Source of the DNA: a phage
Reading direction: 5' to 3' (one strand)
Sequence record: NC_129898.1
Length of the DNA stretch: 64,000 nucleotides
The notes under the pieces were generated by a model. That model was not told the origin of the DNA, did no database searches, and saw only the letters and a list, made by a program, of their open reading frames with translations. Every line of letters begins with the position of its first letter. Position 1 is the first letter of the stretch. The position numbers and the translations under genes are program-made. Positions 9,145-26,536 of this stretch are shown here, in pieces.

Positions 9145-9183
9145 GCTACCTCCTACTTCTACCGTCCCTAGTAAGATAAATTA

Positions 9184-9818: not shown

Positions 9819-9855
9819 AGATGACCCTCCCTCTTGTTGAAAACAAAATACACTA

Positions 9856-10140
9856 CTACCAAGTCACTGTCAAGTAGGCAACCGTGTTATTTTTCTCCGG
9901 AGAGATGCCAACAACATCCACCTGCAGACCTCCTGCCCTCAAATCTCCAACGATGTGTGGAAAGTAGTCTGAGAGGTGTGATGGGAGATTTATCGAAAAT
10001 CCACATCCCAGAAAGCCTGCTAACGCTTTATTTTGTATATCCCCTACAATCGCATCATAAATAGAGTTAAGCTCGTCAGGAAGCGTTACAGGACGTTTTA
10101 GAGCTAACTGGTGCAACTTGTCCTTAGCACTCATTTTCAT
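9856..10140 (-). CDS. hypothetical protein
   Basis: Start moved to ATG at 10140 (MKMSAKDK) forming an ATGA overlap with the methyltransferase stop. Confidence 0.4.
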   Translation of the reverse strand: MKMSAKDKLHQLALKRPVTLPDELNSIYDAIVGDIQNKALAGFLGCGFSINLPSHLSDYFPHIVGDLRAGGLQVDVVGISPEKNNTVAYLTVTW

Positions 10141-10670
10141 TTCAAGTCTGCCTCTGGTGGTGCCAACCACATAAATGGCGGCAAGTCTAGACGGTTTTTC
10201 TTGTCCCATACAAAATATGCATATGCCTGCCCATCCGTTCTACCATTGGATTGGAATGACGGACGCTTAGATATTGTGATCACAGTGGTAGGTGCATTAT
10301 CAAGCCACCATTCAAATCTGGCCTTGCTTTCCAGAAAATTAAGACGCAAAAGCATAATAACTACATCGGCATCTTTCAACGCCTTGTCTACAAACTCACG
10401 AGCCAAGCTGTACGGTGGGTTGGTGATAATACAGTCAACATGGTTGTATTCTGTATTCAGATAGTCAACACCTTCTTGGATTTCTCCCCATGCAGATCCT
10501 AACGGCATACGGGAGTAGAACACACCTGAGGCACTATTCCTGCAAGGCTCTAAGTAAGTCCAGTCTTCTGGGAACGGAATAAGGTCATACAGCCCTTCTG
10601 CACACCACTCCGGTGTCACATACTCATCGTAAGCGTTACGTTGTTCATCAGGTTTTCTAGCACAAGTCAT
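10137..10670 (-). CDS. DNA N6-adenine methyltransferase (NPPY motif)
   Basis: DCIITNPPYSL catalytic motif; 177 aa; no adjacent restriction enzyme. Confidence 0.65.
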   Translation of the reverse strand: MTCARKPDEQRNAYDEYVTPEWCAEGLYDLIPFPEDWTYLEPCRNSASGVFYSRMPLGSAWGEIQEGVDYLNTEYNHVDCIITNPPYSLAREFVDKALKDADVVIMLLRLNFLESKARFEWWLDNAPTTVITISKRPSFQSNGRTDGQAYAYFVWDKKNRLDLPPFMWLAPPEADLK

Positions 10671-10688
10671 GCAAATCTCCAGATCATA

Positions 10689-10710
10689 AAAGCCCTCCGA
10701 AGAGGGCTTT
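10689..10710 (-). terminator. terminator-like hairpin
   Basis: AAAGCCCTC-CGAA-GAGGGCTTT perfect 9-bp stem with tetraloop 3' of 10722..11771; weak U-tract. Confidence 0.4.
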
Positions 10711-10721
10711 AGGATTAATGT

Positions 10722-11771
10722 TTAAGCTTCTTCGACAATTCCTGCGCCCAGGATTTTTTCATTGAGCTCTTTTGCTGTTTTAATAATATTGTCCACCAGA
10801 CGCTTACGAGTCTTATCTTTCACCTGAACTTCTTCTCCGCCGTTCAGGGTGGTTTTCAATTGGGACAAAATGTCCTGAAGCTCTACCACAGAGAATCGCT
10901 GCAGATCTTCCGAGGTAATCTCACCCAGTGCAATCTTAACGGTCTCACCACTCTCCATCTGCAGATTCAGGAACACAGTGTGAACATCACCTTTCATACC
11001 ATTTTCTTTTGCAGACTCAACAGCATGAACCAGCTCGTCCAAAGATGTGCATTGGTGAATCTCTGGCAGGCCTGCTTCGCCTAGCACACCTTCTTCATCA
11101 CTTTTTGCCAAAAGCTTTTTCGGTTTCTGTCCATTCTGAATGCGCTGAATGTTTTCATCGTCCAGAATAATAGCACCAGTTCGAGATGCCAGCTCTTCTC
11201 CATCTAACCACACTTCGCCGCCAGCTGTGATGGATGCGATCTCATCTTCTGTTAGCACTCCACCGTAGTATTTTTCGATCAGGCGTTCAAAACGTTTCTT
11301 CCAGTAGTTGACCTGGGTATTCATGTTCACACCGTTACCATAGGTGCCACCTTGATAATAGTGGAACATAAATTCTGTGTCCGGAGCCACAGTTCGTTCT
11401 TTGCAACCCATCCATAAGATTGTTCCTGCTGAACAGCACATCCCTTCAGCGTGTACAACAACGCTTGCCTGAGACTCGCGGAATGCCTGCAAATACGCCA
11501 TAGCAATGTGAACGCAACCACCAGGGCTGTTAATGATTACACGGATACTTTCTTCTGGCTGAGCCATACGAATCGTCTGTAGACGAGACATATGATCTTG
11601 CAGGTCGTCCAAATCGTCAATATAAAGAACGTGGTCAACAACAGGTGTTGGGTAGCTGTATGTTTCCATAATACCACCCGGCATACCAAACATTTTGTTA
11701 CTCATAGGTTCGAAACCGTTCTGTTTTTCTTTCATGCCGTGTACCATGGTGCTGCGAGGTGTTAAATTCAT
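10722..11771 (-). CDS. ClpP/S14-like serine peptidase with ~150-aa C-terminal extension
   Basis: INSPGGCVHIAMAYL and GMCCSAGT (ClpP-type oxyanion/Ser motifs); acidic, helix-rich C-terminal half. Confidence 0.5.
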   Translation of the reverse strand: MNLTPRSTMVHGMKEKQNGFEPMSNKMFGMPGGIMETYSYPTPVVDHVLYIDDLDDLQDHMSRLQTIRMAQPEESIRVIINSPGGCVHIAMAYLQAFRESQASVVVHAEGMCCSAGTILWMGCKERTVAPDTEFMFHYYQGGTYGNGVNMNTQVNYWKKRFERLIEKYYGGVLTEDEIASITAGGEVWLDGEELASRTGAIILDDENIQRIQNGQKPKKLLAKSDEEGVLGEAGLPEIHQCTSLDELVHAVESAKENGMKGDVHTVFLNLQMESGETVKIALGEITSEDLQRFSVVELQDILSQLKTTLNGGEEVQVKDKTRKRLVDNIIKTAKELNEKILGAGIVEEA

Positions 11772-11831
11772 GAGAAATCCTTAATATTGGAAGTTGAAAG
11801 CTATTTATTTAAACCTGATTCACATTTACCT

Positions 11832-12191
11832 TTATTTAGCAATCACTATAGAATACTTACGATTGTCAGAAGCATCACAGCTCAATGATTGCCAGTCTAC
11901 CACATACCACGTATCATTGTCAACAATTACTTTATCGCCTGTTCTGTAGCAGGTGCTGCTTTCAATAATCCTAGACTCGATAAAGAATCTGTGTCGGCGC
12001 TCACGTAGCAACGCTAAGTTGATTATATTACCACCACTGTCCTTGGTCCACACATTCTTGGATCCTTTATTTGCCAAAATTGTCTCGCCGTTATATACAA
12101 ACAGGCAGTATATTTTATTCAGTCTCTCTTGTATTGTAGCCATACTGTGTCCTTCTCCTTGTTTTGTCCAGTAATAATATCTAAAGCTCAC
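11832..12191 (-). CDS. hypothetical protein
   Basis: 119-aa ORF. Confidence 0.45.
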   Translation of the reverse strand: MSFRYYYWTKQGEGHSMATIQERLNKIYCLFVYNGETILANKGSKNVWTKDSGGNIINLALLRERRHRFFIESRIIESSTCYRTGDKVIVDNDTWYVVDWQSLSCDASDNRKYSIVIAK

Positions 12192-12246
12192 CTGTTTGTC
12201 AACAACTGTTTTAGATATTTAAGGGTGGAATAACCACCCTTCTGTA

Positions 12247-13035
12247 TTACTCGGAAACAGGAGTCCAAATATGATTTGCACGATCCTCAATAAGATTGAG
12301 TGCAATCTGACGGCCTAACCCGGAACGAACGACATCGTCTGGACTATCAAAGCTAATCATTCCAACCTCAGGATCTGGATGACGCGTAAAGAAATCTGTC
12401 ACCCATGCAAGGCCAGATTTACCAGGGATGTCACGTTGGCTGTTATCGCCCATAATTACAAGGGTGGCCTGATCAGAGATCCTTGTGATAATTGACAACA
12501 TTTCTTCAGGATTGGTTTGCTGTGCTTCATCAATAAGGACAAAGCATCGTTCATCAAAACTACGACCACGAATGCTTTCAACCTCACAAATCTCGATACG
12601 GCTGTTCTGACCGTCTCCAAGCATTGCTGCAAAAGCACCTTTGCCAACACGACGACAAATCGTGTCCATCATGCTTCTAAGATAGGGCCACAGTTTCTGC
12701 ATTGCATTTCCAGGTTTAAATCCTGAAGTCTTTCCTGTCTGAACGTAAGGGCGTGCAACAATGATCTTATCAATCTCGTTCTTGCGCAGAAGATCCCCTG
12801 CATATGCAGATGCCATGAATGTCTTACCGGATCCAAACACACCGTTTACAATGATAATCTTACGCGACCCTAGATAATCAAGATACTTTTGCTGCTTTTT
12901 ATTCATTGGTCGGAGAGCTGGAGCGGTGTGCTCTCGTTCGTCAGCAAATTTTTCAGCAGCCTTACGCAGGCGATCAGATTTGCGAGCCTCTCTAGCTTCA
13001 TCACGCATGCGTTTTGTTTCTTTAGCTCGACCCAT
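12247..13035 (-). CDS. phoH: PhoH-like ATPase
   Basis: Walker A GVFGSGKTF and Walker B VLIDEAQ in PhoH-like arrangement; 262 aa. Confidence 0.8.
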   Translation of the reverse strand: MGRAKETKRMRDEAREARKSDRLRKAAEKFADEREHTAPALRPMNKKQQKYLDYLGSRKIIIVNGVFGSGKTFMASAYAGDLLRKNEIDKIIVARPYVQTGKTSGFKPGNAMQKLWPYLRSMMDTICRRVGKGAFAAMLGDGQNSRIEICEVESIRGRSFDERCFVLIDEAQQTNPEEMLSIITRISDQATLVIMGDNSQRDIPGKSGLAWVTDFFTRHPDPEVGMISFDSPDDVVRSGLGRQIALNLIEDRANHIWTPVSE

Positions 13036-13073
13036 GTTGGGACTCCTTTCAGATTGAGATGTGCCAAGTACTT

Positions 13074-13424
13074 TTACTGCAATAGTTTTTCAATAGCCGC
13101 TTCCATGCTGCTTGCAACAGCCTGAACTCGGATATTCATCTCTTCTTGGTGGATCAGCTCCTTAAGCTCTTTAATGGTAAATTCTTTAGAGAAACCTTCT
13201 ACCATAATCTTGTGTAAGGCTTCTTGCGTGTCTACCTGCAAGAACTTTTCCAGTTTGTTGGCAGAGGCTTCTAAATCAGCCCGAATACGAGGGTCATCTG
13301 TGCGATTCAGCATCAGGCGTAAGCCATCAAGATTAGTAGAAATAGCGTCTGCATGTTGAGTAACTAATCGTGGCAAAATGAGATCTACAAACTTATTAGC
13401 CAAATCGATACGTTCTTGTGTCAC
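13074..13424 (-). CDS. hypothetical protein
   Basis: 116-aa ORF (GTG start). Confidence 0.5.
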   Translation of the reverse strand: MTQERIDLANKFVDLILPRLVTQHADAISTNLDGLRLMLNRTDDPRIRADLEASANKLEKFLQVDTQEALHKIMVEGFSKEFTIKELKELIHQEEMNIRVQAVASSMEAAIEKLLQ

Positions 13425-13596
13425 TGTTGCACCCCCTCTTCATCCTCATGATGTTTCTTTTCACGCTTGTGTTTTTTCTTAAGCTCAAGCGCAATCTCTT
13501 TTTTGTACGCCTTCTTCAAGGCCTTTTTAGCCATTTGGCACCTCCTCTGCTTTCATTACGCTAATTATAACCAACTTAACAAGACTTTGTCAACAA

Positions 13597-14070
13597 TTAG
13601 TCAACCTGAACCCAACCGCCTGCTACCTTTTTAAACATTCTTTGGTTATCACTGCCTCGGAATGGTTTCTTGGTTGGTAAATCTTTTACATACTTTCCAT
13701 CAATGACGATATCAGCCAGTTTAAGAACATCACTAGAGATATGCTCAAATGTGAACCCAGTATACACAAGAATAGTTTTCTTGTCACCAAACTTTTCCTT
13801 AATTCTCCTCATAAGGTTGATAATATCTGGCTCATTATAAGTAGCCAAAGGCTCTCCACCAAGTAAAGAAATACCGCATACAGATTCATTGTCTAAATCC
13901 AACAAAATTTTCTGCAAATCTTCTTCGGTGAACTCTCTTCCTTTATCTTTTGACCAAAATGCTTGATTAAAGCAACTGGGACAAGCGTGTGGGCACCCAG
14001 ATACCCACAAAGCTGTCCTAATACCTGGCCCCTCGGTGTAAGATATCTCTGTATACCCGACAATATTCAT
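13597..14070 (-). CDS. nrdG: anaerobic ribonucleotide reductase activating protein (radical SAM)
   Basis: CPHACPSC radical-SAM cysteine motif; start set to ATG at 14070 (MNIVGYTE) overlapping the upstream stop. Confidence 0.8.
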   Translation of the reverse strand: MNIVGYTEISYTEGPGIRTALWVSGCPHACPSCFNQAFWSKDKGREFTEEDLQKILLDLDNESVCGISLLGGEPLATYNEPDIINLMRRIKEKFGDKKTILVYTGFTFEHISSDVLKLADIVIDGKYVKDLPTKKPFRGSDNQRMFKKVAGGWVQVD

Positions 14071-14183
14071 ACATACTCCGCATCGCATTTAGGACAATGC
14101 CAAATAAAATCGTCCAGTGCCTTACACCAACGAAGATTGCAATGACAACCACACTTGCAAATTTTATAAATACCTGTAGACAT
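14067..14183 (-). CDS. small Cys-rich (zinc-ribbon-like) peptide, 38 aa
   Basis: GGAGG RBS 7 nt upstream of ATG 14183; MSTGIYKICKCGCHCNLRWCKALDDFIWHCPKCDAEYV; stop overlaps nrdG start (ATGA). Confidence 0.35.
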   Translation of the reverse strand: MSTGIYKICKCGCHCNLRWCKALDDFIWHCPKCDAEYV

Positions 14184-14246
14184 GCTGCACCTCCTAGTTT
14201 ACTGTGTGACAACAATATGCAACATCCTTGTGACTTTTGTCAAGTA

Positions 14247-15239
14247 TCAGCAACCACAACTTCCGTAGTGCTTAACCCGTTCTATAACCTCCGCTTGCTT
14301 ACCTTTATTGTAAGGACGGGAGTTTGGACTGGACAGATACCCGGATACACGTCTAATCACACTGATCGTTCCCTCTTCATGGTTTCCACACTCTGGGCAT
14401 ACAAAGCCTTTAGCTGTTGCACTGAACTCACCAGAGAATCCACACTTAAGACATTTATCCACAGGCTGGTTAATACCAAAATACATAATGTGTTTATATC
14501 CGAAATCAACAAGAGCTTCCAAAGCATCTAAGTTGTTTTTCAGATTTGGTGTCTCTATGTACCCAATGTTGCCACCAGAGGAGATCATAGCAAAACCTTC
14601 CTCATACTTCCACTTATCAAAAGGCGAGCTATTGATCCATACTGGCTGATGGAAACTGTTGGTGAGGTATTCATGCTCGTGCTTCAACACTTCTGGGTAT
14701 TCACGATCCAGACAGGTTGCAGCTTTATAGCATAAACTCTCAGAAGGTGTGCCGTACAAGCTAAATGCTAGTCCACTTTCCTTCTTGTATCGCTCACAAG
14801 CATCTTTCATGTGCTGAAGGATTCCAAGAGCTAAAGCCTTGTCACCCTCTCTGCCCAAAATCTGACAGGTTTCATACACACCAATATACCCAATACTGAT
14901 GGAAGCGTACCCGTCATAGAAGAGTTTATCGATACTCTCTTCAGGATCCAGGCTAGCAAGAGCTCCTTCACACCACATGATAGGGTTATGCCCTGCCTTT
15001 GTTCCTTTTAGACGGTTAACTCTTACAAGGTGAGCCTCATATGCCAAATCCAAATATTCGTCAAGAACTGCAAAGAAATCAACACCTTCCGTTTTAGCTT
15101 TTGCCGCAATCATTGGTAGGTTAAGGCTAACAACACCCAAGTTGAATCTGCCAAGGTATTTCTCCTCGCCTGTTACAGGGTCGCTATATTTCGATAAGAA
15201 ACTTCTACACATTATGTTCAAGGTGGTTCGCAAGGCCAC
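14247..15239 (-). CDS. nrdD: anaerobic ribonucleoside-triphosphate reductase, C-terminal part
   Basis: Glycyl-radical-type RVSGYL motif and C-terminal Cys cluster; reading frame remains open upstream of the GTG at 15239. Confidence 0.85.
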   Translation of the reverse strand: MALRTTLNIMCRSFLSKYSDPVTGEEKYLGRFNLGVVSLNLPMIAAKAKTEGVDFFAVLDEYLDLAYEAHLVRVNRLKGTKAGHNPIMWCEGALASLDPEESIDKLFYDGYASISIGYIGVYETCQILGREGDKALALGILQHMKDACERYKKESGLAFSLYGTPSESLCYKAATCLDREYPEVLKHEHEYLTNSFHQPVWINSSPFDKWKYEEGFAMISSGGNIGYIETPNLKNNLDALEALVDFGYKHIMYFGINQPVDKCLKCGFSGEFSATAKGFVCPECGNHEEGTISVIRRVSGYLSSPNSRPYNKGKQAEVIERVKHYGSCGC

Positions 15240-15962
15240 CCCCGCACCATTACGTGCTGCTGCATGTCCCCATGCAGATCAGACTATATCTTCACACTTA
15301 GTGTGTCTACCATTTCGAGTGTCATCAGCTTACACCCTACACCGCTACATTCATCACGGTTAGTCGTTAGGCATTTCGTAACAGAACTCGTAATCATAGT
15401 TATTAGGTGCACCACGTTTCAGGATAGCAGATATTCTTTTTCTATCTATTCCTAAAACATCAGCACAACATCTCAGACTCTTAAAGTGAATAACCACACC
15501 AGTTAATTTGTGGGTGGCTTTCACCCCGTGACATCTTGTGTAAAAAGCATAACAGTTGTTGTCGTATCCTTCTTGAGTATTGTCTGGGCAAGCTCCCCAC
15601 TCAAGGTTGTATACGCTGTTATCTTTCCTGTTGTCACCTTTGTGCTTAACATATGGTAAATTGTCTGGATTTGGTAAAAACGCTTCAGCAACAAGTCTGT
15701 GAACCCTTAGGCAAACAGTCTTTTTGTTCTTGCGTATCCTGACAAGACGGTAACCTGTGTTTATCTCTTCCCACGAATGAATAATTCTTTCATTTTCGTA
15801 TCGGGTGCAATAAACATTGCCCATCTCGTCAATTTCATAACCTTCAAAATCACGAATTTGTTTTCTCATTTCAGGACTCCTCTTAGTCAGGAGTTCTGTT
15901 ACGTTTAGCACGGGATTGTCCGTTCTGGAGTTTCCCCGTTTAGATAGATTTTACATGAGCAG
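15240..15962 (-). mobile_element. intervening sequence splitting nrdD (group I intron or free-standing homing-endonuclease insertion)
   Basis: About 720 bp between the two nrdD reading frames, containing an HNH endonuclease ORF on the same strand. Confidence 0.5.
15360..15869 (-). CDS. HNH homing endonuclease
   Basis: VHRLVAEAF...HKGDNRKDN...NLEW HNH core; ATG at 15869 preceded by AGGAG. Confidence 0.75.
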   Translation of the reverse strand: MRKQIRDFEGYEIDEMGNVYCTRYENERIIHSWEEINTGYRLVRIRKNKKTVCLRVHRLVAEAFLPNPDNLPYVKHKGDNRKDNSVYNLEWGACPDNTQEGYDNNCYAFYTRCHGVKATHKLTGVVIHFKSLRCCADVLGIDRKRISAILKRGAPNNYDYEFCYEMPND

Positions 15963-17132
15963 TTATAGTTTACCCATGCTTGTTACTTTGCCGTCTGTTG
16001 AACCTGTCACTTTACGATTTAGTGGAACAGAAACAAAGTCAGGATAAATCCGCTCTGCAGAGCATTCTAGAGCCAATCGTTTCAAATCGTAGTTAGGATC
16101 CCCAGGGTTCATGTTGACACCCTCCTCTAAGAAGAACAGCACTTTAGGAAACACAGGGGTGATCCGTTCTTCACCAAGACCCATTTTGTGGACTTTCAAG
16201 TAGTTTTTGGTAATCATTCTACCAAAGACCGAGGTATCCAGTCCTAAACTTAATGTGATGAATGGAGTTTGCCCGTTGACAGAAGTTAACGTATTGATTT
16301 GGTAGAGCAAAGTTTGCATACTATCAAACACGTCTTTATCTGTCATTTGCATTGCAACAGTCTCAGCATCTGGCAACCAATGCTCCTGACAAAATTTAAG
16401 GTTCTTCTCATAGGTTGCTTCAGCATACTGTGCCAGATAATGATCAATATGGCTCATGGTTTGACCACCATATTGAGCACTAGCTACTGCACTAGAGATT
16501 TGGCTAAGGATTGTTGTTGCAACCCCTATTGACTTCGGCTTACTGACATGGGCGTTGCCAATGTTGAATCCGTTTTCCAGCATATCCGGATAATTTACCA
16601 AACAACAGTTTGTTAACGGACTGATCAGGTAGTCAAGATCATGCACATGGATGAAGCCTTTGTTGTGCTCTTCGGAGACACGGTCTGGCAGGATCTGTGT
16701 TGATGCAAGATGTTTGCTAAGGATGCCTGCAAGCAGGTCACGATGAGTGTGTACATGATTAGTAGGCTTATTTGCGTTTTCTTTTGTAAATTCATCACAA
16801 GTACGATCCAAGAAGCCACTAATATCTGCAAGCAGTTTTCCACCTGCCTCTCTGTTATTATCTCTTGTCTGTCTATACTGGATGTATTCTCTGGCTGCAC
16901 ATTTTAAACCCATATCCATAAGAGCATCTTCAACAAGGATATGGATATTTTTTACAGAGATCGTGCACTGGTCGGTTGGCAGATTGTTGGCAACAACTTC
17001 ATTAACCGCACAGGCAATCCGGTAAGCTTCTTCTTCAGTATGTCCAGACTCAAGTAAGGCGGACTCTGCCGCCTTGATCACCTTAATTCCGTTATAAAAC
17101 TCTTCTCTACCGTCCCGTTTTACAACTTTCAC
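15963..17132 (-). CDS. nrdD: anaerobic ribonucleoside-triphosphate reductase, N-terminal part (ATP-cone)
   Basis: N-terminal VVKRDGREEFYNGIKV ATP-cone; terminates at a stop immediately 5' of the HNH region. Confidence 0.85.
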   Translation of the reverse strand: MKVVKRDGREEFYNGIKVIKAAESALLESGHTEEEAYRIACAVNEVVANNLPTDQCTISVKNIHILVEDALMDMGLKCAAREYIQYRQTRDNNREAGGKLLADISGFLDRTCDEFTKENANKPTNHVHTHRDLLAGILSKHLASTQILPDRVSEEHNKGFIHVHDLDYLISPLTNCCLVNYPDMLENGFNIGNAHVSKPKSIGVATTILSQISSAVASAQYGGQTMSHIDHYLAQYAEATYEKNLKFCQEHWLPDAETVAMQMTDKDVFDSMQTLLYQINTLTSVNGQTPFITLSLGLDTSVFGRMITKNYLKVHKMGLGEERITPVFPKVLFFLEEGVNMNPGDPNYDLKRLALECSAERIYPDFVSVPLNRKVTGSTDGKVTSMGKL

Positions 17133-17407: not shown

Positions 17408-17410
17408 ATA

Positions 17411-18499: not shown

Positions 18500-18516
18500 T
18501 ATTCTACCTCTAAAAT

Positions 18517-18530
18517 GGGGCCGAAGCCCC
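18517..18530 (-). terminator. intergenic hairpin between nrdA and nrdB (attenuator/terminator-like)
   Basis: GGGGC-CGAA-GCCCC flanked by A- and T-runs on both sides. Confidence 0.4.
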
Positions 18531-18537
18531 TTTTAAA

Positions 18538-20853
18538 TTACAGTGCACAACTTTCGCAATACGGATCTTCAACTGAACTATCTGCAATCAAAGGATAGTT
18601 CTTTCTGGTTTCATCTTCAGCCTGTTTCTTCGCGTGAAGCTCCTCTGTCAAAGAGTCACCAGCACCAACCCGAGAGTTTAAGTAATACCATGTCTTCATC
18701 CCGAATTTAGTAGCACGGATAAGATACCCAAGCTGCTCCTTCATTGAAATTTTACCATCTTTCAACTTGGTGTAATCAATATATAGGTCAGCACTGATTG
18801 CCTGTCCTGTGAATTTTTGAATCACAGCATACATATCAATCATGTCGTTAGTATCAACGTCCCAAGCCGAGGTATAATACTCTTTCAGTTCATCATATTC
18901 AGGAACGATAAACAGCACCTGCCCTTGTGGTGACTTTTTAAAGATAATGTGTTCACGGACAGGATAAACCCCGTTAGTGGTGTTTGTTGCCAACGAAGAG
19001 CTTTCATTAGGCATGTATGCTTCAAGAACGCTATTACGTAGTCCACCGTTTTCAATAATTTCTTTACGTAACCCTTCCCAATCCTGCTTAAGAGAAGGAT
19101 CTTTCACCACACTATCGACCTCTTTGTTATAAGTGTCGATTGGTAACCAACCATCTGGGTATTTTGTTTTATGCATCCACTCGCAGACACCACGCTCTTT
19201 TGCCAATCGTAAACTTGCCTTATGCAAGCTGTAGCTGTGGAGCTCTGCAAGATCGTGAACAAGCTGTTTACTTTCAGGAGATCCGTAAGCAACCTTGTGG
19301 CTGGCAATAAAATGTGCAACATTGGTAAGGCCAACCCCGATGGATCTGCGTTTTTTAACAGTGCTCTCCATATTTTCATACGGATATGTCATGATTTCCA
19401 TAACATTGTCAATCATAAGCACAGTGTAGTATGCAACATCCTCATACTCCTCTGGGGTAACCCTTCCCGCTACAAGAGATGACAGGAAGCACAATGCAAC
19501 TTCGCCATCATCAACATCGTACTTGAAGATATTACGCATATCTGAATAGCCTTTTGTCGGGAGGGCTATTTCTGCACACAGGTTACTTGAATAGATTACA
19601 TCTTTAAAAGGTGTATGTCTATTCATCTCATCTGTCCAGTACACATACAATCTGCCAACCTCGGTACGCTGAGTGATCAGTTCAACAGCAAGGTCTCTAG
19701 CACGGATCCATGTTTTAGGAATGCTGTCATCTTTAGCAATACGATCAACCTCTGCATCAAACTCCTCCATAGACATGGTGAAGATACCCTCGTGCAGTTG
19801 AGGCGCGTGCTTATAGGAAACAAGCATCCAATCTAAATTCTTAGCCACACGGTTGATAAATGACCTATTAATACCTATAGAGTAGTCCATGGTGTTGATT
19901 CTTTTTGAAGCAACAGTCATAGGGTTTCTCAAACGGATTAGCTCATCAATCTGTGGGTCTAGCGCAAGAAATGATACCGTTGCCGAACCTCCGCGTGATT
20001 GTTGTCTATTCTCCTTAACCCCAGCATCAATACCTCGATAATATGGAAGCTTACCCATATGTTTAATAGTGTTACCACGAACACCATCACCTGCAGATCT
20101 TGATGATAAATAGTAGCCAATACCTGCTTGGTTAACCGTCATTGTGTACGCAACTTCACGTGCCACACCAATAGATTTTGCTGTATCGTCAGCTTTTATT
20201 ACACAACAAGATGCATACCCTGTCTTACCTGTGCGTAGACCGTTTAAGTACGGTGTCGGGGCATTGATCTTTAAGTCTGACAGATAAGTGTATAATTTTA
20301 CAACATCGTCAATACGGCGTTCTTTCGGCATATTTTTCATGACAGCCATCGCTATCCCCATGAACATCATCTGTGGGGATTCGAACAGGGTGTCTTTAAG
20401 AGTATCCTTGATCCCGTATTTGTCTCGAAACTGTTTAAGGACTGCATAGCCATAACCAAGGTCTTTACTGTGATCAATAACAGTGTCTAAAGTGTTTAAC
20501 TCGGTAAAGCTATAACCCATATCCTCCCAATACCCTTTATCAACCATGGTGTTGTAAAATGATGGTAAGGAAGGGATCTTTGTAAATCCTCCAAAAGCCT
20601 CTTTATAAATCTGACCGATAAGAACACGACCAGCCATACGAGAATGTGCTTCGTCCTTACGGCTAACACAGGAGTCTATAATAGCTTGGTTAACTTCTTT
20701 GGTTGTGCATCCATCATACAGCCGTTTGTATGCATCAAGTGCAATATGTGACCAATTGCCGTTACCGTCGTCACCGAAAATAGCTGCCTTATTTAAACGT
20801 TCCGGATCGAATGCCACTTCACATCCGTTGCTTTTAATTACCTTGGTGATCAA
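18538..20853 (-). CDS. nrdA: ribonucleotide reductase class I alpha subunit
   Basis: 771 aa; N-terminal ATP-cone (VIKSNGCEVAFDPERL), catalytic NLCAEI and C-terminal CxxC tail. Confidence 0.9.
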   Translation of the reverse strand: MITKVIKSNGCEVAFDPERLNKAAIFGDDGNGNWSHIALDAYKRLYDGCTTKEVNQAIIDSCVSRKDEAHSRMAGRVLIGQIYKEAFGGFTKIPSLPSFYNTMVDKGYWEDMGYSFTELNTLDTVIDHSKDLGYGYAVLKQFRDKYGIKDTLKDTLFESPQMMFMGIAMAVMKNMPKERRIDDVVKLYTYLSDLKINAPTPYLNGLRTGKTGYASCCVIKADDTAKSIGVAREVAYTMTVNQAGIGYYLSSRSAGDGVRGNTIKHMGKLPYYRGIDAGVKENRQQSRGGSATVSFLALDPQIDELIRLRNPMTVASKRINTMDYSIGINRSFINRVAKNLDWMLVSYKHAPQLHEGIFTMSMEEFDAEVDRIAKDDSIPKTWIRARDLAVELITQRTEVGRLYVYWTDEMNRHTPFKDVIYSSNLCAEIALPTKGYSDMRNIFKYDVDDGEVALCFLSSLVAGRVTPEEYEDVAYYTVLMIDNVMEIMTYPYENMESTVKKRRSIGVGLTNVAHFIASHKVAYGSPESKQLVHDLAELHSYSLHKASLRLAKERGVCEWMHKTKYPDGWLPIDTYNKEVDSVVKDPSLKQDWEGLRKEIIENGGLRNSVLEAYMPNESSSLATNTTNGVYPVREHIIFKKSPQGQVLFIVPEYDELKEYYTSAWDVDTNDMIDMYAVIQKFTGQAISADLYIDYTKLKDGKISMKEQLGYLIRATKFGMKTWYYLNSRVGAGDSLTEELHAKKQAEDETRKNYPLIADSSVEDPYCESCAL

Positions 20854-21080
20854 TTTGCTTCCTCCACTTCATCAACGTATTTATCAAGGCAGGTATCAGT
20901 ATCTTGTTGGATAAAGGTATCCTCTTCTACGGAGATATTTATAATTTTACCTGTATACTCGTCATAATAAACATCATCATACATTTTAATATCATTTGTC
21001 AGGCCGTTGAACCAAAGCCAACCAACATACTCTGACCGACTTGCAAAACCAAGATCCTTCCACTTGGAGTTATGACTCAT
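20850..21080 (-). CDS. hypothetical protein
   Basis: Start set at ATG 21080 (MSHNSKW) with AAGGTGG RBS, after the stop of 21091..21591. Confidence 0.45.
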   Translation of the reverse strand: MSHNSKWKDLGFASRSEYVGWLWFNGLTNDIKMYDDVYYDEYTGKIINISVEEDTFIQQDTDTCLDKYVDEVEEAN

Positions 21081-21090
21081 CTTCACCACC

Positions 21091-21591
21091 TTAGCTTTCA
21101 ATACCGAATAATTTTTCCAGGCGATGCAGATCTTCAAAATTGAAAGGTTCATCAACAATATGAATATCTTCAGCCTTTTCAGATTGTTTTGTATACTTTC
21201 TTACATTAACACGATCTTCTACAGGGATATCATACGGAAGATCTTGAACAAGCATTGCCTCACCGGGTGCTTTATCTACATCTAAAATATCTACACCGTT
21301 ATACATTTGCGGGTATCTAAAGTCTGCACGCATGACACCAGCAAATACATCTGCCTTTCGATAATGGGTTGGCTTATTTTTGCATCGAACGTTTTTTCCA
21401 CGAAGAACATCAATATTTTTTAAATCAAACCCTACAGCAAAGAGTGCAGCTCGGAGACCGTTTCGTGTGCGAACGTTAAATCCGGGAACAGTAGATAGGA
21501 AATCTAAAGTAACTGAAATAAATGTCTTTTTAGGAATCATAACATTACTCATATCTGTCTCCATTTCTGGCTCACCAACAAAGTGAGCCAT
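21091..21591 (-). CDS. hypothetical protein
   Basis: 166-aa ORF. Confidence 0.5.
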   Translation of the reverse strand: MAHFVGEPEMETDMSNVMIPKKTFISVTLDFLSTVPGFNVRTRNGLRAALFAVGFDLKNIDVLRGKNVRCKNKPTHYRKADVFAGVMRADFRYPQMYNGVDILDVDKAPGEAMLVQDLPYDIPVEDRVNVRKYTKQSEKAEDIHIVDEPFNFEDLHRLEKLFGIES

Positions 21592-21650
21592 TATTATAGA
21601 TTATCTGATGCTATTAGTCAACACAAAAGTTACCTATCGCTGTGATAGGA

Positions 21651-22634
21651 TTAACCTTTCATGAAGTGGTTATTAAGCAGCTGTCTGTGCTGAACCCACC
21701 CACAAAAGTTGGCAGACCAGAATTTACCATCACGGTCTTGATGGGTTACACCTTCCTGCCAAACACAGCTGTCCTGTGTGATTTCACATGAAGACAGGTA
21801 GTAGTTTAAACGTTCCATTGCGTTATCGTGATCCATAGGTGTTGCCTGGTGCTCGTAGGGGCTTGCATGAATACGATCCCCACCAATCAATTTTTTAGCC
21901 ACACTGTCTGCCTTTTCAAACGTGCTGTCAATATTTCGATAAGATACTTGTGCACAGCAACTAGCACTAATAGACAGAGCTTCTTTAGTATCGAGAATGC
22001 AGAGCTTTCCTTCTGTGTCACGTACAGCGTAGTTAAACTCTCCGTCCAAATAAACATGCTCTACATATGGGGTGTGCCATTGACCCGGTTTAAGGATTTC
22101 AGGAGTGCTATTCATAATAGCATCCTGCATGCAATTAGCCAACATCTGAATCGTAGGATCCGCATCGTGCCAGCAACGTAGGTGGAAAAAATTATTCCAC
22201 TCGGTGCTTGTTACAACTGTTTTCATGCGCTGAAACGGCTCTACTAAGCGGTTACATACTTGCTTATGGTAACCAGCAAGGGCGAACTTCTCTGCATGCC
22301 AAGCGGCGTTTTTTGCAGCTTCTTTCCAAAACTCTTCAGGGGTCATCTCCATGTCAGTGTATTCTACACGGATCTTTTGATCGTGTTCCCCTCCATCTTC
22401 CATTCCTCGCTTATTTACACCGAAGCGAACTGGCATTGCCGGATTCTCAACAATCTGCTGCAGCATCTTGCTGACAGGCACTGCACGAGAAGACATGGCG
22501 TTTCGGCTGAACATTCGATGTGTCATAAGCTCTGAGTGAATAATTCGAGGATATTCTAGCTCAAAAGTAGTGATACGCTTACCTTTCTCGGAAATGCTGT
22601 CGGCAATAATCTTTGCAGTGCACAGTTTTAGCAT
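21651..22634 (-). CDS. thyX: ThyX-like flavin-dependent thymidylate synthase homolog (atypical length)
   Basis: TFELEYPRIIHSELMTHRMFSRNAMSSR aligns with the ThyX signature (F..P...HR..S.N..S.R) and NFFHLR second motif; 327 aa is longer than typical ThyX. Confidence 0.65.
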   Translation of the reverse strand: MLKLCTAKIIADSISEKGKRITTFELEYPRIIHSELMTHRMFSRNAMSSRAVPVSKMLQQIVENPAMPVRFGVNKRGMEDGGEHDQKIRVEYTDMEMTPEEFWKEAAKNAAWHAEKFALAGYHKQVCNRLVEPFQRMKTVVTSTEWNNFFHLRCWHDADPTIQMLANCMQDAIMNSTPEILKPGQWHTPYVEHVYLDGEFNYAVRDTEGKLCILDTKEALSISASCCAQVSYRNIDSTFEKADSVAKKLIGGDRIHASPYEHQATPMDHDNAMERLNYYLSSCEITQDSCVWQEGVTHQDRDGKFWSANFCGWVQHRQLLNNHFMKG

Positions 22635-22834
22635 TATTTAGCTCTCCTTGTTTTAATTTTGGAAATTTCGTCTGGGTTTATGTTGGCCTTAAATGCAAGG
22701 TATCTGTTAAACATATCGGAGCACATATCTTGGGTGATCCTAGAGGCATACACCAGCTTACCGCCCAGATCATACACCTCTATCCAGTCACCGTATCTGA
22801 CTACAGGATCGCCACCTTTAGAACATCTGCCCAT
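22634..22834 (-). CDS. hypothetical protein
   Basis: 66-aa ORF. Confidence 0.4.
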   Translation of the reverse strand: MGRCSKGGDPVVRYGDWIEVYDLGGKLVYASRITQDMCSDMFNRYLAFKANINPDEISKIKTRRAK

Positions 22835-22835
22835 T

Positions 22836-23429
22836 TCAAATACCTTCTAAAAACTTCCCTATTTTATACCAGCTGTTAGCGGTATAGTCAACACTAACCT
22901 TCAACTCCTCGAATTGCTCGTAAGGAGTGTCTTTTAAGATTTTAATAACTTCAGGACGTGAAGCGAATTGATTCAGGTATTCATGCCTGTCGTCAATTAT
23001 AACATCTACAGCCACATTACCTTTGAAATGTGTGGCGTAGAAGCCGTGACCCTGGGTGTGATCGTCCAGATCCATAAAATCGCTGGTCCAACGCTTTAAG
23101 AACCTTGATTTAGATGCAAGGTGACCTTTCTTACATACAGAGATAAATGCAAGCTTGTGACCACGAGCCACCAAATCTTTCATAACCTCAATAGCCCCCT
23201 CTTCAGGCTTAAGAAAGTCGTAGAGGAACGGGTCACTCCAGAAATCAAAAGGCCCTATGATGTTTTCTTTGGGGCGATCAGGCCAATACTTTGACAGATC
23301 GTAATACATCAGTCCGTTAGAAGGTTTAGCGACTGTCTTGCTGGCTGGGCCATACAAACGCTCTAGCCATTCCCACCATGCTGTTCCTGAGTCTACCAGT
23401 GTTAAATCTACATCAATTCCGATCAGCAT
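22836..23429 (-). CDS. HAD-superfamily 5'(3')-deoxyribonucleotidase-like hydrolase
   Basis: N-terminal IGIDVDLTLVDS (DxDxT) HAD motif I; DDR motif late. Confidence 0.6.
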   Translation of the reverse strand: MLIGIDVDLTLVDSGTAWWEWLERLYGPASKTVAKPSNGLMYYDLSKYWPDRPKENIIGPFDFWSDPFLYDFLKPEEGAIEVMKDLVARGHKLAFISVCKKGHLASKSRFLKRWTSDFMDLDDHTQGHGFYATHFKGNVAVDVIIDDRHEYLNQFASRPEVIKILKDTPYEQFEELKVSVDYTANSWYKIGKFLEGI

Positions 23430-23434
23430 TGTTC

Positions 23435-24037
23435 TCAGACCTCTTTAGCATCAATATACTTGCACACAATCTCAGATGCGCACTCCCAAGGAGCTCCCTC
23501 AGGGTTAACAACATCAAACTCGATACCTTTTATCCCGTTCTTCTCTAGGCTAAGGTAAGTTCTGGAATCATTTCCCCAATCATATCCTGCACGGTGGATA
23601 CGGAACAGTAGAAGATCGCCACCTGTGCTGTATGCGTACTCGCCAAGGCATGCCAGCTCCTCTTTGAAGCCACCATCGGAGTAAACAACAACCCCTTTAC
23701 CTTCAGGGAAATCTTTCTTCAAGGATGCGACTGCGGCCTTACCGAAAGCATCTTCACCAAAGATAGGTTTAATCAGATTTTCACTACAATGGATCATCCA
23801 TTCTCGCGGAGAAACATGCTTGCCGTCTATCATTAAGAACGGGCACGGTTCTTCTTTGTAGCGGCGATCATAAAGTGCATTCCACAACTGTGGTGAAATA
23901 CCAGCTGCCTTAATTGCCACACTGAATAGCATTTCCTTTACCTCGCGGTGATGCGAGTTTGGAATGGCTTCCAACAAAAGATCTGCGATATGGTCTTTTC
24001 CAGAACTTGGTGGAGCATTAAGAACAATAATATCCAT
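23435..24037 (-). CDS. deoxynucleoside monophosphate kinase-like P-loop kinase
   Basis: P-loop LNAPPSSGKDHIADLL resembles T4 gp1 dNMP kinase N-terminus. Confidence 0.55.
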   Translation of the reverse strand: MDIIVLNAPPSSGKDHIADLLLEAIPNSHHREVKEMLFSVAIKAAGISPQLWNALYDRRYKEEPCPFLMIDGKHVSPREWMIHCSENLIKPIFGEDAFGKAAVASLKKDFPEGKGVVVYSDGGFKEELACLGEYAYSTGGDLLLFRIHRAGYDWGNDSRTYLSLEKNGIKGIEFDVVNPEGAPWECASEIVCKYIDAKEV

Positions 24038-24240
24038 TAAAAACCTCCGTGGTATTCTTCAACTGCATCAATAATACTTTTACACTTATCTACCAGTTCG
24101 TTAGCTACTACGGCATCGTCTTCCCAAACAGCCTCCTCAATCTGATCAAGCAGTGATCGCATCTTATTCATCATTTCTGGAACAAAGCTTTCTGAAAAGC
24201 TGTCTGGGATTGTTAACTCTGGTGTCATTGCGGTCTCCAA
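24037..24240 (-). CDS. hypothetical acidic protein
   Basis: 67-aa ORF. Confidence 0.4.
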   Translation of the reverse strand: METAMTPELTIPDSFSESFVPEMMNKMRSLLDQIEEAVWEDDAVVANELVDKCKSIIDAVEEYHGGF

Positions 24241-24255
24241 TCATACTGTGCGTTA

Positions 24256-24714
24256 TTAGAAGTTTGTTTTTACACGTCCCTTTTCATCTACTTCGTTGTT
24301 AGCTAAAAGCGTTACAAAGTCTGTAAAACGAACATGAAGAACTCTTTTCTTATCCAGGTATCCTAAAGCCACACCTGAGAAATTTACCATCAAAGGTGCT
24401 AAAGAAGCTCTAGCACTGAAATGCTGCTGTTCCACTCTTCCAACACCCTTAGTATAAGAAGGGTTGAGATTGTAAGTTCTGAATCCAAGTTTTGTTGGAG
24501 CTTTAGAATTAAAAACAACTTTATAACGTTTCTTACTCAGCTTATGTTCCAGAATAAGCATGCCCTTTTCGCCACGGATAAGCTGAAAATCTGTAAAATG
24601 CTCTTTTAAGACAAAAGGTAGTGCCAGCCCCATAGCCTGCCCCCTTTGCACGGCTGTCTCACCAAAAGCTTTTGCATCAGTAAGCTCTTTAGTCAAGTCT
24701 ATACTTTTGATCAT
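24256..24714 (-). CDS. hypothetical protein
   Basis: 152-aa ORF. Confidence 0.5.
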   Translation of the reverse strand: MIKSIDLTKELTDAKAFGETAVQRGQAMGLALPFVLKEHFTDFQLIRGEKGMLILEHKLSKKRYKVVFNSKAPTKLGFRTYNLNPSYTKGVGRVEQQHFSARASLAPLMVNFSGVALGYLDKKRVLHVRFTDFVTLLANNEVDEKGRVKTNF

Positions 24715-25525
24715 ACCTGGTCTCCAAAATGTATTGTAGTTCTTTCTTGCCTATACTCTTCATTCCAGCAGTCTTACCTGCTTCTTCTTGAAAAGAAGAA
24801 TAGCATTCAGCAAACACTCTGTCAACACCATCAACTAAAGATTTTATGAAATATGTTGATTCTTCAGATTTTGGGTCATCCTTCCCCAATACTTTTCCAG
24901 CATTATACCCAACACGCCTTATGCAGAAGTCGTAGTCATCTGGTGTACTAAAAGAAAATAGCTTATTCTCCCCAATCTCTACAGGATCCCTATTGCACAC
25001 CTTTTTCTCCCAAATTTGGAAAACACATGGCACGTCATAAGGTTTGCCGTTGAGTAAAAACGAGTTCTTGGGGCACCTTTCGCTGTAAATAAGGTGCATC
25101 GACATGTCCAGTTTGTTTGCAAAAAATATTTTTTCAAATGTCCGTGGCAAGATGAAGGCTATAGCCCCACCAGGCTCTAGCAATGATGCACAGTGGTTAA
25201 AAAACTTGCAAGCTAAAGACGAATTTTTGCCGAATGGAGGATTACCTATGAAGACATCAGCTTTAGGGTACACCTCTAAGAAGTTTGCCTTAATACACGG
25301 TGTTGGGCCTTCAAATTCAGGATCTGGTACCAAATCGTACGACAGTATCTCTGAAAATAGTTTTGAAAAAGAACCCTTTCCAGCAGAAGGCTCAACGTAT
25401 GCACAACTCCCATACTTACCTTTTACTTTACCAACAAGATATTCTGCATACTCAGGGTCTGTGTAATATTTGTCGTTGGACTCTTTCTTGCTCAAGGTGC
25501 CTCCAAAATGAAAAGGGAGGCGCAA
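24689..25525 (-). CDS. DNA N6-adenine methyltransferase (NPPF motif)
   Basis: VFIGNPPFGKNSSLA catalytic motif; 278 aa. Confidence 0.65.
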   Translation of the reverse strand: MRLPFHFGGTLSKKESNDKYYTDPEYAEYLVGKVKGKYGSCAYVEPSAGKGSFSKLFSEILSYDLVPDPEFEGPTPCIKANFLEVYPKADVFIGNPPFGKNSSLACKFFNHCASLLEPGGAIAFILPRTFEKIFFANKLDMSMHLIYSERCPKNSFLLNGKPYDVPCVFQIWEKKVCNRDPVEIGENKLFSFSTPDDYDFCIRRVGYNAGKVLGKDDPKSEESTYFIKSLVDGVDRVFAECYSSFQEEAGKTAGMKSIGKKELQYILETRYDQKYRLD

Positions 25526-25533
25526 GCCTCCCT
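25505..25533 (-). terminator. intrinsic terminator
   Basis: AGGGAGGC-GCAA-GCCTCCCT; on the minus strand followed by TTTTCATTTT; 3' of 25541..26524. Confidence 0.6.
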
Positions 25534-25540
25534 CTACTTG

Positions 25541-26524: not shown

Positions 26525-26536
26525 CGTTAAGATTCC

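What the first reader, a model, noticed from the sequence alone, without database searches (positions are those of the whole stretch)
10137..25525. Two orphan N6-adenine DNA methyltransferases
10137..10670 (NPPY) and 24689..25525 (NPPF) have no adjacent restriction endonuclease. Orphan methyltransferases in lytic phages usually provide self-protection from host restriction systems; two different enzymes suggest two target specificities.
Basis: partly seen in the sequence, partly recalled or inferred. Interest (0 to 1): 0.4.

Follow-up and report, generated by a model that had tools for sequence, protein, structure and literature searches.

The report
Two phage DNA adenine methyltransferases
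Both genes are real stand-alone DNA adenine methyltransferases of an rV5-like E. coli phage: one is identical to a published enzyme that methylates GATC, the other most likely makes the GTAC methylation also seen in that phage, so the finding is correct but largely already known.

Summary
The window comes from a Vequintavirus (rV5/FV3-like lytic E. coli myophage, 98% identical to EPFV3-03/2025). Both ORFs are real and under strong purifying selection, and neither has a restriction enzyme beside it.

ORF1 (10137..10670, minus strand, 177 aa, NPPY) is 177/177 identical to BASEL phage Bas51 gene bas51_0176. A 2025 PLoS Biology paper showed that this protein methylates GATC in phage DNA. Its T83P mutant loses that methylation, the enzyme triggers two retrons, and it is toxic when overexpressed.

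ORF2 really starts at a TTG at 25495, not 25525, and encodes 268 aa with NPPF. It is a two-domain, M.TaqI-like type II DNA methyltransferase. In 23 of 80 sampled bacterial loci its relatives sit directly upstream of a type II restriction enzyme gene. No such gene is in the window.

The paper's supplementary counts, set against my site counts for Bas51, show about 99-100% m6A at both GATC and GTAC. GTAC methylation does not depend on ORF1. By elimination ORF2 is the probable GTAC enzyme, at about 65%. The rival is a type III Mod-like methyltransferase encoded outside the window.

GTAC is the most under-represented of all 256 tetranucleotides. "Two specificities" is supported. "Self-protection" is plausible but untested. 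Interest is low.

The parts
10137..10670 (-). ORF1: 177-aa minimal gamma-type N6-adenine DNA methyltransferase with no separate target-recognition domain. Identical to Bas51 bas51_0176, the published GATC m6A methyltransferase and retron trigger.
10410..10421 (-). ORF1 catalytic motif IV, NPPY (residues 84-87). T83 lies immediately before it.
   Evidence: T83, N84, P85 and P86 are invariant in 30 homologues. T83P abolishes GATC methylation in Bas51.
10518..10550 (-). ORF1 motif I (SAM loop), EPCRNSASGVF. It is degenerate: the first Gly is replaced and there is a 2-residue insertion relative to the family consensus EPCxGxG.
   Evidence: Alignment A1. Coordinates. The identical protein is active in Bas51, so the deviation is tolerated.
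10677..10709 (-). Hairpin AAGCCCTC-TTCG-GAGGGCTT (10690..10709) after the clpP-like gene, followed by the GGAG ribosome-binding site (10677..10680) of ORF1.
   Evidence: The hairpin falls below the terminator scanner's T-run threshold.
24689..25495 (-). ORF2 with corrected start: 268-aa two-domain gamma-type type II DNA N6-adenine methyltransferase. Probable GTAC (GTm6AC) enzyme.
25367..25393 (-). ORF2 motif I, EPSAGKGSF (residues 35-43).
   Evidence: E, P and both G positions are invariant in 33 homologues.
25232..25243 (-). ORF2 motif IV, NPPF (residues 85-88).
   Evidence: GNPPFG is invariant in 33 homologues.
24692..25108 (-). ORF2 C-terminal domain (about residues 130-268), the putative target-recognition domain. 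Conserved DVPCVFQIW, RRVG..AG and TAG..S motifs.
25500..25535 (-). Terminator-like hairpin (25512..25535) after the dnaQ-like gene, then the GGAGG ribosome-binding site (25500..25504) of ORF2.

Best explanation
Both genes encode SAM-dependent N6-adenine DNA methyltransferases that the lytic phage expresses to methylate its own replicating DNA.

ORF1
- It is a 177-aa enzyme consisting only of the catalytic Rossmann domain.
- It methylates the adenine of GATC. This was shown experimentally for the identical Bas51 protein.

ORF2
- It is an M.TaqI-like two-domain type II methyltransferase.
- It descends from a family that in bacteria is often paired with a restriction enzyme, and here it has lost that partner.
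- It most likely methylates GTAC to GTm6AC. This is inferred by elimination and from its architecture.

Consequences
- Virion DNA is essentially fully methylated at both tetranucleotides.
- The likely benefit, which is inferred, is immunity to GATC cutters (MboI/DpnII type) and to GTAC-containing-site cutters (RsaI, HpyAXII, PabI and KpnI type) across a broad enterobacterial host range.
- The cost is that some retrons sense the GATC enzyme.
For: Identity of the phage
- The window is a Vequintavirus.

ORF1
- It is 177/177 identical to bas51_0176. Of the three Bas51 genes annotated as N6-adenine methyltransferases, only this one has D69, D79 and T83.
- PMC12548924 reports escape mutations D69G, D79G and T83P, a GATC m6A logo, and loss of that methylation in T83P.

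Methylation counts
- Supplementary counts are: wild type GATC 1405, GTAC 509, other 576; T83P 35, 511, 349.
- The Bas51 genome holds 703 GATC sites (1406 adenines) and 258 GTAC sites (516 adenines). Both motifs are therefore about 99-100% methylated, and GTAC methylation does not depend on ORF1.
- E. coli K-12 has no known GTAC methyltransferase (my own knowledge).

ORF2
- Motifs I and IV are invariant.
- It gives a full-length PADLOC type II MTase match.
- Its two-domain structure matches M.BseCI, MmeI, CamA and M.TaqI.
- In 23 of 80 bacterial loci a conserved ~215-aa gene lies directly downstream, and this gene matches PADLOC REase_II at E 2.5e-14.

The alternative GTAC candidate
- bas51_0070 most resembles type III Mod subunits (EcoP15I Mod, E 2e-24). 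As far as I know these recognise asymmetric sites.

Other support
- GTAC ranks 1 of 256 tetranucleotides for under-representation (z -13.7 in the window, -15.8 in Bas51). GATC is neutral.
- Both genes are under purifying selection.
Against: - No experiment links ORF2 or its orthologue to GTAC. The Mod-like bas51_0070 (DPPF motif) remains a candidate.
- The GTAC signal comes from nanopore 6mA calling. An adjacent m4C (GTAm4C, as made by M.RsaI) miscalled as 6mA has not been excluded.
- Pfam and NCBIfam scores for both proteins fall below the curated cut-offs.
- Protection from restriction has never been tested. These phages are highly sensitive to six tested RM systems.
- The T83P phage plates normally on a retron-free host.
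- E. coli hosts already have Dam.
Confidence: 0.7

Rival explanations
1. GTAC methylation is made by the third, type III Mod-like methyltransferase (the bas51_0070 orthologue, outside this window). ORF2 has a different specificity, possibly contributing to the 'other' m6A sites, or is weakly active or inactive on phage DNA.
For: bas51_0070 has a strong PF01555 match (E 4e-42) and a DPPF motif. After loss of GATC methylation, 349 'other' m6A sites remain unassigned. No direct data link ORF2 to GTAC.
Against: The closest solved relatives of bas51_0070 are type III Mod subunits. To my knowledge these methylate one strand of asymmetric sites, whereas GTAC is about 99% methylated on both strands. 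ORF2 is a compact TaqI-like enzyme of the kind that reads 4-bp palindromes, and it is under purifying selection.
Confidence: 0.2
2. ORF2 is not a DNA methyltransferase. It is a METTL5/Erm-like RNA (rRNA or tRNA) N6-adenine methyltransferase that the phage uses to modify host or phage RNA.
Against: Those matches cover only about 150 residues of the Rossmann core. The C-terminal ~130 residues align only with two-domain DNA methyltransferases (226-250 residues aligned). There is a full-length match to PADLOC type II MTase models. Bacterial homologues are followed by a type II restriction enzyme gene in 23 of 80 loci. Bas51 DNA carries a second m6A motif that needs a second enzyme.
Confidence: 0.05
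3. The methyltransferases, ORF1 in particular, are not primarily anti-restriction. They keep rapidly replicating phage DNA fully Dam-methylated for another purpose. Possible purposes are escaping MutH nicking and mismatch repair at hemimethylated GATC, or controlling packaging, replication or transcription, as Dam methylation does for phage P1 and for host oriC.
For: The host already has Dam, yet host Dam clearly cannot keep up: GATC m6A falls from 1405 to 35 sites in T83P. GATC is not avoided in the genome (o/e 0.98-0.99), so there is no sign of past selection by GATC cutters. The protein is extremely conserved (88 records at >=99% identity; dN/dS about 0).
Against: The T83P, D69G and D79G phages plate like wild type on a retron-free laboratory host, so no essential role is evident. 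No packaging or regulatory GATC clusters were examined here. This idea does not explain GTAC methylation combined with strong GTAC avoidance.
Confidence: 0.25

Closest known systems
Bas51 (Escherichia phage WalterGehring, MZ501111) N6-adenine methyltransferase bas51_0176, characterised in PLoS Biol 2025 (PMC12548924)
   Same: Identical protein sequence (177/177) and the same genomic position directly downstream of the ClpP-like protease gene. GATC m6A activity, retron Asa1/Squ1 triggering and toxicity on overexpression can be transferred to ORF1 directly.
   Different: Nothing at the protein level. There are 8 synonymous nucleotide differences.
M.TaqI and other gamma-class type II N6-adenine DNA methyltransferases (M.BseCI, CamA, the MmeI methyltransferase module)
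   Same: Motif I precedes motif IV (NPPY/NPPF). Both have the Rossmann catalytic domain. ORF2 also has a C-terminal domain that superposes on their recognition domains.
   Different: Sequence identity is only 14-20%. ORF2 (268 aa) is much smaller than these 380-750-aa enzymes. ORF1 has no recognition domain at all. The target sequences differ.
M.HpyAXII of Helicobacter pylori (GTAC-specific gamma-class m6A methyltransferase, PMC2588503)
   Same: Same proposed target and product (GTm6AC). Same class. Modelled on M.TaqI. The catalytic Asn sits at nearly the same position (N87 against N85 in ORF2).
   Different: M.HpyAXII is 331 aa and is partnered with a PabI-type restriction enzyme. It was not retrieved among ORF2 relatives.
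E. coli Dam / T4 Dam (alpha-class, Pfam PF02086)
   Same: Same target and product as ORF1 (Gm6ATC). T4 Dam is likewise a phage orphan enzyme.
   Different: Different class and motif order, and they have a dedicated recognition domain. ORF1 gave no PF02086 match, even at E <= 1.
Small phage 'Dam' family, Pfam PF05869 / TIGR01712 (phage N-6-adenine-methyltransferase, about 165 aa)
   Same: Similar size, no separate recognition domain, phage-borne, and weak similarity around motif IV.
   Different: Scores are below the curated thresholds (19.2 against 28.1 bits; 16.1 against 97 bits), so ORF1 is not a member by those models. It belongs to PHROG 799 instead.
METTL5 / Ta1320 / PH1948 RNA m6A methyltransferases
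   Different: They have a single domain, act on RNA, and METTL5 needs TRMT112. ORF2's C-terminal domain and its restriction-enzyme-linked bacterial relatives point to DNA.

Membership tests
Gamma-class N6-adenine DNA methyltransferase (M.TaqI type) | Class I SAM-methyltransferase Rossmann fold | tested here: met
Gamma-class N6-adenine DNA methyltransferase (M.TaqI type) | Motif I (SAM loop) lies N-terminal to motif IV (D/N/S)PP(Y/F) | tested here: met
   ORF1: EPCRNSASGVF at 41-51, NPPY at 84-87. ORF2: EPSAGKGSF at 35-43, NPPF at 85-88. ORF1's motif I is degenerate but the identical protein is active.
Gamma-class N6-adenine DNA methyltransferase (M.TaqI type) | C-terminal target-recognition domain | tested here: inconclusive
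   Met for ORF2: 226-250 residues align with two-domain DNA methyltransferases. Not met for ORF1: the 177-aa protein is all catalytic domain, with 144 residues aligned to M.TaqI. ORF1 works like a gamma-class enzyme but is an atypical minimal member.
Gamma-class N6-adenine DNA methyltransferase (M.TaqI type) | Produces m6A in a defined DNA sequence | not testable with these tools
   ORF1: shown in the literature for the identical protein (GATC). ORF2: only inferred (GTAC).
Orphan (solitary) methyltransferase | No cognate restriction endonuclease gene adjacent | tested here: met
   The neighbours have no restriction-enzyme domains in Pfam, PHROGs or PADLOC. The HMM of the partner restriction enzyme of bacterial ORF2 homologues has no hit in the window (all E > 1). 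Caveat: two small neighbours (152 aa and 94 aa) have unknown function.
Pfam PF05869 Dam / TIGR01712 phage N-6-adenine-methyltransferase | Score at or above the curated cut-off | tested here: not met
   ORF1 scores 19.2 bits against 28.1 and 16.1 against 97.05.
Pfam PF07669 Eco57I-type methyltransferase domain | Score at or above the gathering cut-off | tested here: not met
   ORF2 scores 17.5 against 25.3 bits. ORF1 scores 13.3 against 25.3 bits.
Alpha-class Dam (E. coli Dam / T4 Dam, PF02086) | Sequence match to the family model and alpha-type motif order | tested here: not met
   ORF1 gave no PF02086 hit at E <= 1. Its motif order is gamma-type. It shares only the GATC specificity.
PADLOC/REBASE-derived type II methyltransferase family PDLC03255 | Full-length profile match | tested here: met
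   ORF2: E 2.4e-32, residues 8-253 against profile positions 2-249 of 269.
METTL5-like RNA m6A methyltransferase | Single-domain enzyme acting on RNA | tested here: not met
   ORF2 has an extra ~130-residue C-terminal domain that aligns with DNA-methyltransferase recognition domains. Its bacterial relatives sit in RM gene pairs. The RNA substrate itself cannot be tested here.

The most novel reading that the evidence does not exclude
ORF2 and its large, functionally unannotated family (PHROG 5172; more than 800 homologues, common in Sphingomonas and other Alphaproteobacteria) would be a previously uncharacterised lineage of GTAC-specific m6A methyltransferases. Its bacterial members would pair with an equally uncharacterised ~215-aa type II restriction enzyme family (Q.HGK.FE ... 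PTSIK ... LNPKIDS..QRRLQCS). The phage would have captured the methyltransferase alone, to neutralise the single most strongly counter-selected tetranucleotide in its genome. Separately, ORF1 would read GATC with no recognition domain at all, by a mechanism not yet described.
Probability: 0.45. Interest if true: 0.35.

Novelty: already known. Interest (0 to 1): 0.22.

Why it matters
ORF1's activity, target and a defence-related consequence are already published for an identical protein. Both genes have been annotated as putative N6-adenine methyltransferases since rV5. The finding therefore adds little.

Three modest additions come from this work.
1. The published but unassigned GTAC methylation in Bas51 is quantitatively complete, and ORF2's orthologue is the best candidate for it.
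2. GTAC is the most avoided tetranucleotide in these genomes. Avoidance and methylation therefore converge on the same site. This is the only sequence-level hint that restriction pressure shaped these phages.
3. ORF2's bacterial relatives define an RM gene pair with an unannotated restriction enzyme family.

These points matter for choosing or engineering rV5-like therapeutic phages, because of host range across restricting strains and sensitivity to retrons. They also matter for interpreting nanopore or SMRT data from them.

Tried and rejected
Searches that were uninformative or below threshold
- Pfam and NCBIfam: all matches for both proteins fall below the curated thresholds, so no curated family membership can be claimed.
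- The precomputed label PF26055 on ORF2 homologues could not be reproduced or named with the local Pfam copy.
- A Foldseek search of ORF2 against viral structures (BFVD) returned only unnamed or generic methyltransferases. No GTAC enzyme such as M.CviQI could be recognised.
- Literature searches for rV5 + RsaI and for phage nanopore GTAC motifs found nothing beyond the Bas51 paper.
- Rfam found no family in 9000..27500, so the nrdD insertion could not be called a group I intron.

Ideas considered and dropped
- I recalled that small phage methyltransferases might be the non-specific Hia5/Hin1523 type. That paper shows those are 281-aa alpha-class DPPY enzymes with a recognition region, so the idea was dropped. 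Sensitivity of these phages to EcoRI and EcoRV also argues against non-specific adenine methylation.
- I tested whether the 152-aa ORF overlapping the end of ORF2 is a remnant of the bacterial partner restriction enzyme. The HMM gave no similarity and there is no PADLOC hit.
- GTAC depletion in the bacterial loci that carry ORF2 homologues is lowest among the 16 palindromic tetranucleotides (o/e 0.71 with the restriction gene, 0.79 without). This is weak and not specific enough to assign specificity.
- The profile of the partner restriction enzyme matched no solved structure.


Full report
**What the window is.** Megablast of 9000..27000 finds 352 phage records. The best (98.3% over 100%) is Escherichia phage EPFV3-03/2025, followed by FV3, rV5 relatives and BASEL Vequintavirus isolates. 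The region is the minus-strand nucleotide-metabolism and replication block. It contains ClpP-like protease, PhoH, NrdG/NrdD, glutaredoxin, NrdB/NrdA, ThyX, DnaQ-like exonuclease and endonuclease VII genes. In the BASEL phage Bas59 both ORFs of the finding are already annotated 'putative N6 adenine methyltransferase'. The larger one has carried that label since rV5.

**Checking the observation.**
- Both ORFs exist as listed, with TNPPY and GNPPFG motifs.
- ORF1 starts at the ATG at 10670, behind a GGAG site and a hairpin that follows the clpP-like stop codon.
That TTG lies in the loop of a 10-bp, 6-GC terminator-like hairpin (25512..25535).
- The real start is the TTG at 25495, four bases after GGAGG. 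Homologues begin MSKKES... and relatives annotate 807 nt. ORF2 is therefore 24689..25495 and encodes 268 aa.
- A regex scan of all stop-to-stop ORFs finds no other credible motif-IV protein in the window.
- Both genes are under purifying selection against Bas51 and Bas59: dN/dS is 0.00-0.01 for ORF1 and 0.05-0.09 for ORF2.

**No restriction partner.**
- The immediate neighbours are the ClpP-like protease and a 94-aa protein of unknown function (ORF1). For ORF2 they are the DnaQ-like exonuclease and a 152-aa protein of unknown function. None has a restriction-enzyme signature in Pfam, PHROGs or PADLOC.
- A scan of one genome per bacterial species found ORF2 relatives in 277 places; the best 80 loci were kept, many of them in Sphingomonas and other Alphaproteobacteria.
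- In 23 of those 80 loci a conserved ~215-aa gene starts at the end of the methyltransferase gene. It has no Pfam, NCBIfam or PDB match. It does match PADLOC 'REase_II' PDLC03460 at E 2.5e-14.
- An HMM of this partner finds nothing in the six-frame translation of the window.
- ORF2 is thus an orphan copy of a family that is often part of a type II RM pair.

**ORF1 is an already characterised enzyme.**
- PHROG 799 ('DNA methyltransferase') matches at 5e-67. Pfam Dam (PF05869), EcoRI_methylase and TIGR01712 match only below their cut-offs.
- The AF2 model (pLDDT 87.8) is a bare Rossmann domain. [quoted passage not shown] There is no recognition domain.
- The SAM loop is unusual: EPCRNSASGVF against the family consensus EPCxGxG.
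- A 2025 PLoS Biology paper (PMC12548924) selected Bas51 mutants that escape the retrons Asa1 and Squ1. All carried changes in 'the N6 adenine methyltransferase'. D69G, D79G and T83P were rebuilt and abolished defence. Native nanopore sequencing gave a GATC m6A logo that nearly disappeared in T83P. The gene was toxic when expressed in E. coli.
- Bas51 is Escherichia phage WalterGehring, MZ501111. It has three genes with that annotation. Only bas51_0176 has D69, D79 and T83, and it is 177/177 identical to ORF1.
- ORF1's activity is therefore established by identity, not by inference.

**Two motifs, quantitatively.**
- The paper's source data for Fig 4f give m6A calls as follows:

| Phage | GATC | GTAC | other |
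|---|---|---|---|
| Bas51 wild type | 1405 | 509 | 576 |
| Bas51 T83P | 35 | 511 | 349 |

- I assembled the full Bas51 genome from three fetches. It contains 703 GATC sites (1406 adenines) and 258 GTAC sites (516 adenines).
- Virion DNA is thus about 100% methylated at GATC and about 99% at GTAC. GTAC methylation is untouched by loss of ORF1.
- The paper does not assign the GTAC motif to a gene.
- To my knowledge E. coli K-12 has no GTAC methyltransferase, so the enzyme must be phage-encoded.

**What ORF2 is.**
- PHROG 5172 ('unknown function') matches at 5e-125, with a weaker match to PHROG 799. The two proteins are therefore distant paralogues in the catalytic half.
- Thirty-three homologues keep EPSAGxGxF and GNPPFG invariant. 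They also keep C-terminal motifs DVPCVFQIW, RRVG..AG and TAG..S.
- The longest alignments are to two-domain DNA adenine methyltransferases: M.BseCI 229 residues, MmeI 250, CamA 238 and M.TaqI 226 (model pLDDT 90.2).
- PADLOC type II MTase model PDLC03255 matches the full length at 2.4e-32.
- Together with the restriction-enzyme pairing of bacterial relatives, this makes a DNA substrate far more likely than RNA.

**Which enzyme makes GTm6AC?**
- There are two candidates: ORF2's orthologue bas51_0200 (95.5% identical) and bas51_0070.
- bas51_0070 is a 441-aa PF01555 protein with a DPPF motif, encoded between the helicase and primase genes, outside this window.
- Its nearest solved relatives are type III Mod subunits: H. 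pylori Mod at 1e-28 and EcoP15I Mod at 2e-24. As far as I know these methylate one strand of asymmetric sites. That fits the unassigned 'other' calls better than a fully double-strand-methylated palindrome.
- A compact TaqI-like enzyme is the classic architecture for 4-bp palindromes.
- The characterised GTAC m6A enzyme M.HpyAXII is also gamma-class, TaqI-like, with its catalytic Asn at position 87. ORF2's is at position 85.
- I therefore put ORF2 = GTAC at about 65%, the Mod-like enzyme at about 20%, and the rest on other specificities or artefacts. One possible artefact is GTAm4C miscalled as 6mA. M.RsaI and M.MjaV make m4C at this site.

**Biological role.**
- GTAC is the most under-represented of all 256 tetranucleotides: o/e 0.46, z -13.7 in the window, and o/e 0.59, z -15.8 in Bas51. 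GATC is neutral (o/e 0.98-0.99).
- Avoidance and methylation of the same site suggest long-standing pressure from GTAC-recognising nucleases. GTm6AC would also mask GGTACC (KpnI-type) sites; that is my inference.
[quoted passage not shown] The six systems tested were EcoKI, EcoCFT_I, EcoRI, EcoRV, EcoCFT_II and EcoP1_I. None of them targets GATC or GTAC.
- For ORF1, the host already has Dam, GATC is not avoided, and the T83P phage plates normally without a retron. A role other than anti-restriction therefore remains a live rival. Possibilities are keeping fast-replicating DNA fully methylated to avoid MutH, or for packaging or regulation.
- The 227 'other' calls lost in T83P, and the toxicity in a Dam+ host, hint at relaxed specificity of this domain-less enzyme. 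That is inference.

**Verdict.** The identification as orphan DNA N6-adenine methyltransferases with two specificities is right. The purpose is unproven. One enzyme is already characterised in the literature and both were already annotated, so novelty is low. The useful residue is a specific, cheap-to-test assignment (ORF2 to GTAC) and an unannotated restriction enzyme family next to its bacterial relatives.

Noticed in passing
window 14247..17132 (minus strand): The anaerobic ribonucleotide reductase gene nrdD is split into two ORFs (15963..17132 N-terminal part, 14247..15239 C-terminal part). Between them lies an insertion carrying a 183-aa winged-helix / homing-endonuclease-like ORF (15360..15911). 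The gene is uninterrupted in Bas59, and it is annotated as a joined CDS with an internal homing endonuclease in Bas51. No Rfam intron family reached threshold.
   Followed up: partly
whole window; Bas51 genome (L008-L010): CGATCG (the PvuI site) is absent from the 64-kb window. An order-4 Markov model expects about 14 counts over both strands. It occurs once in the 140.7-kb Bas51 genome, although GATC itself is not avoided and TGATCA and AGATCT are slightly over-represented. This suggests selection by a GATC-containing 6-cutter that Dam-type methylation does not block.
   Followed up: partly
window 8387..8914 (minus strand): This is the orthologue of the Bas51 'putative glycosidase' (bas51_0171). 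A premature stop (R87*) in that gene was the second mutation found in retron escapees and relieved Retron-Asa1 defence. It lies only 1.2 kb downstream of ORF1.
   Followed up: no
Bas51 L009 14456..15781 and 17042..17806 (outside the window): Vequintavirus genomes carry two further methyltransferase genes between the helicase and primase genes. One is a 441-aa PF01555 type III Mod-like N6-adenine enzyme (DPPF). The other is a 254-aa protein annotated 'Dcm-like C5 cytosine methyltransferase', which has no Pfam hit. The 349 unassigned m6A calls in the Bas51 T83P mutant may belong to the former.
   Followed up: partly
bacterial loci L014, L026, L041, L043, L044 and others; e.g. L043 4803..5459: A conserved ~215-aa protein family sits directly downstream of ORF2 homologues in 23 of 80 bacterial loci. 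Its invariant features include H10, G11, F14, E15 (HG..FE), D41, P53, K57 and N161.K.DS..QRR.QCS. It has no Pfam, NCBIfam or PDB match and only a PADLOC REase_II hit (E 2.5e-14). It is probably an uncharacterised type II restriction endonuclease.
   Followed up: partly
GenBank records MG0656xx found: More than 20 records named 'Campylobacter phage' with host Campylobacter jejuni are 93-95% identical over the whole 18-kb query to E. coli Vequintavirus genomes and are unannotated. The host labels look doubtful, perhaps because of contaminating coliphages.
   Followed up: no
homologues of ORF2 against the local Pfam copy: Many ORF2 homologues carry a precomputed Pfam label PF26055.1. The local Pfam-A copy gives no hit for the same proteins, so the family's name and scope could not be checked.
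   Followed up: partly
window 24256..24714 (minus strand): A 152-aa ORF overlaps the 3' end of ORF2 by 26 nt and is conserved (PHROG 9938, function unknown). This tight coupling suggests co-translation with the methyltransferase. It has no similarity to the bacterial partner restriction enzyme and no PADLOC hit.
   Followed up: partly
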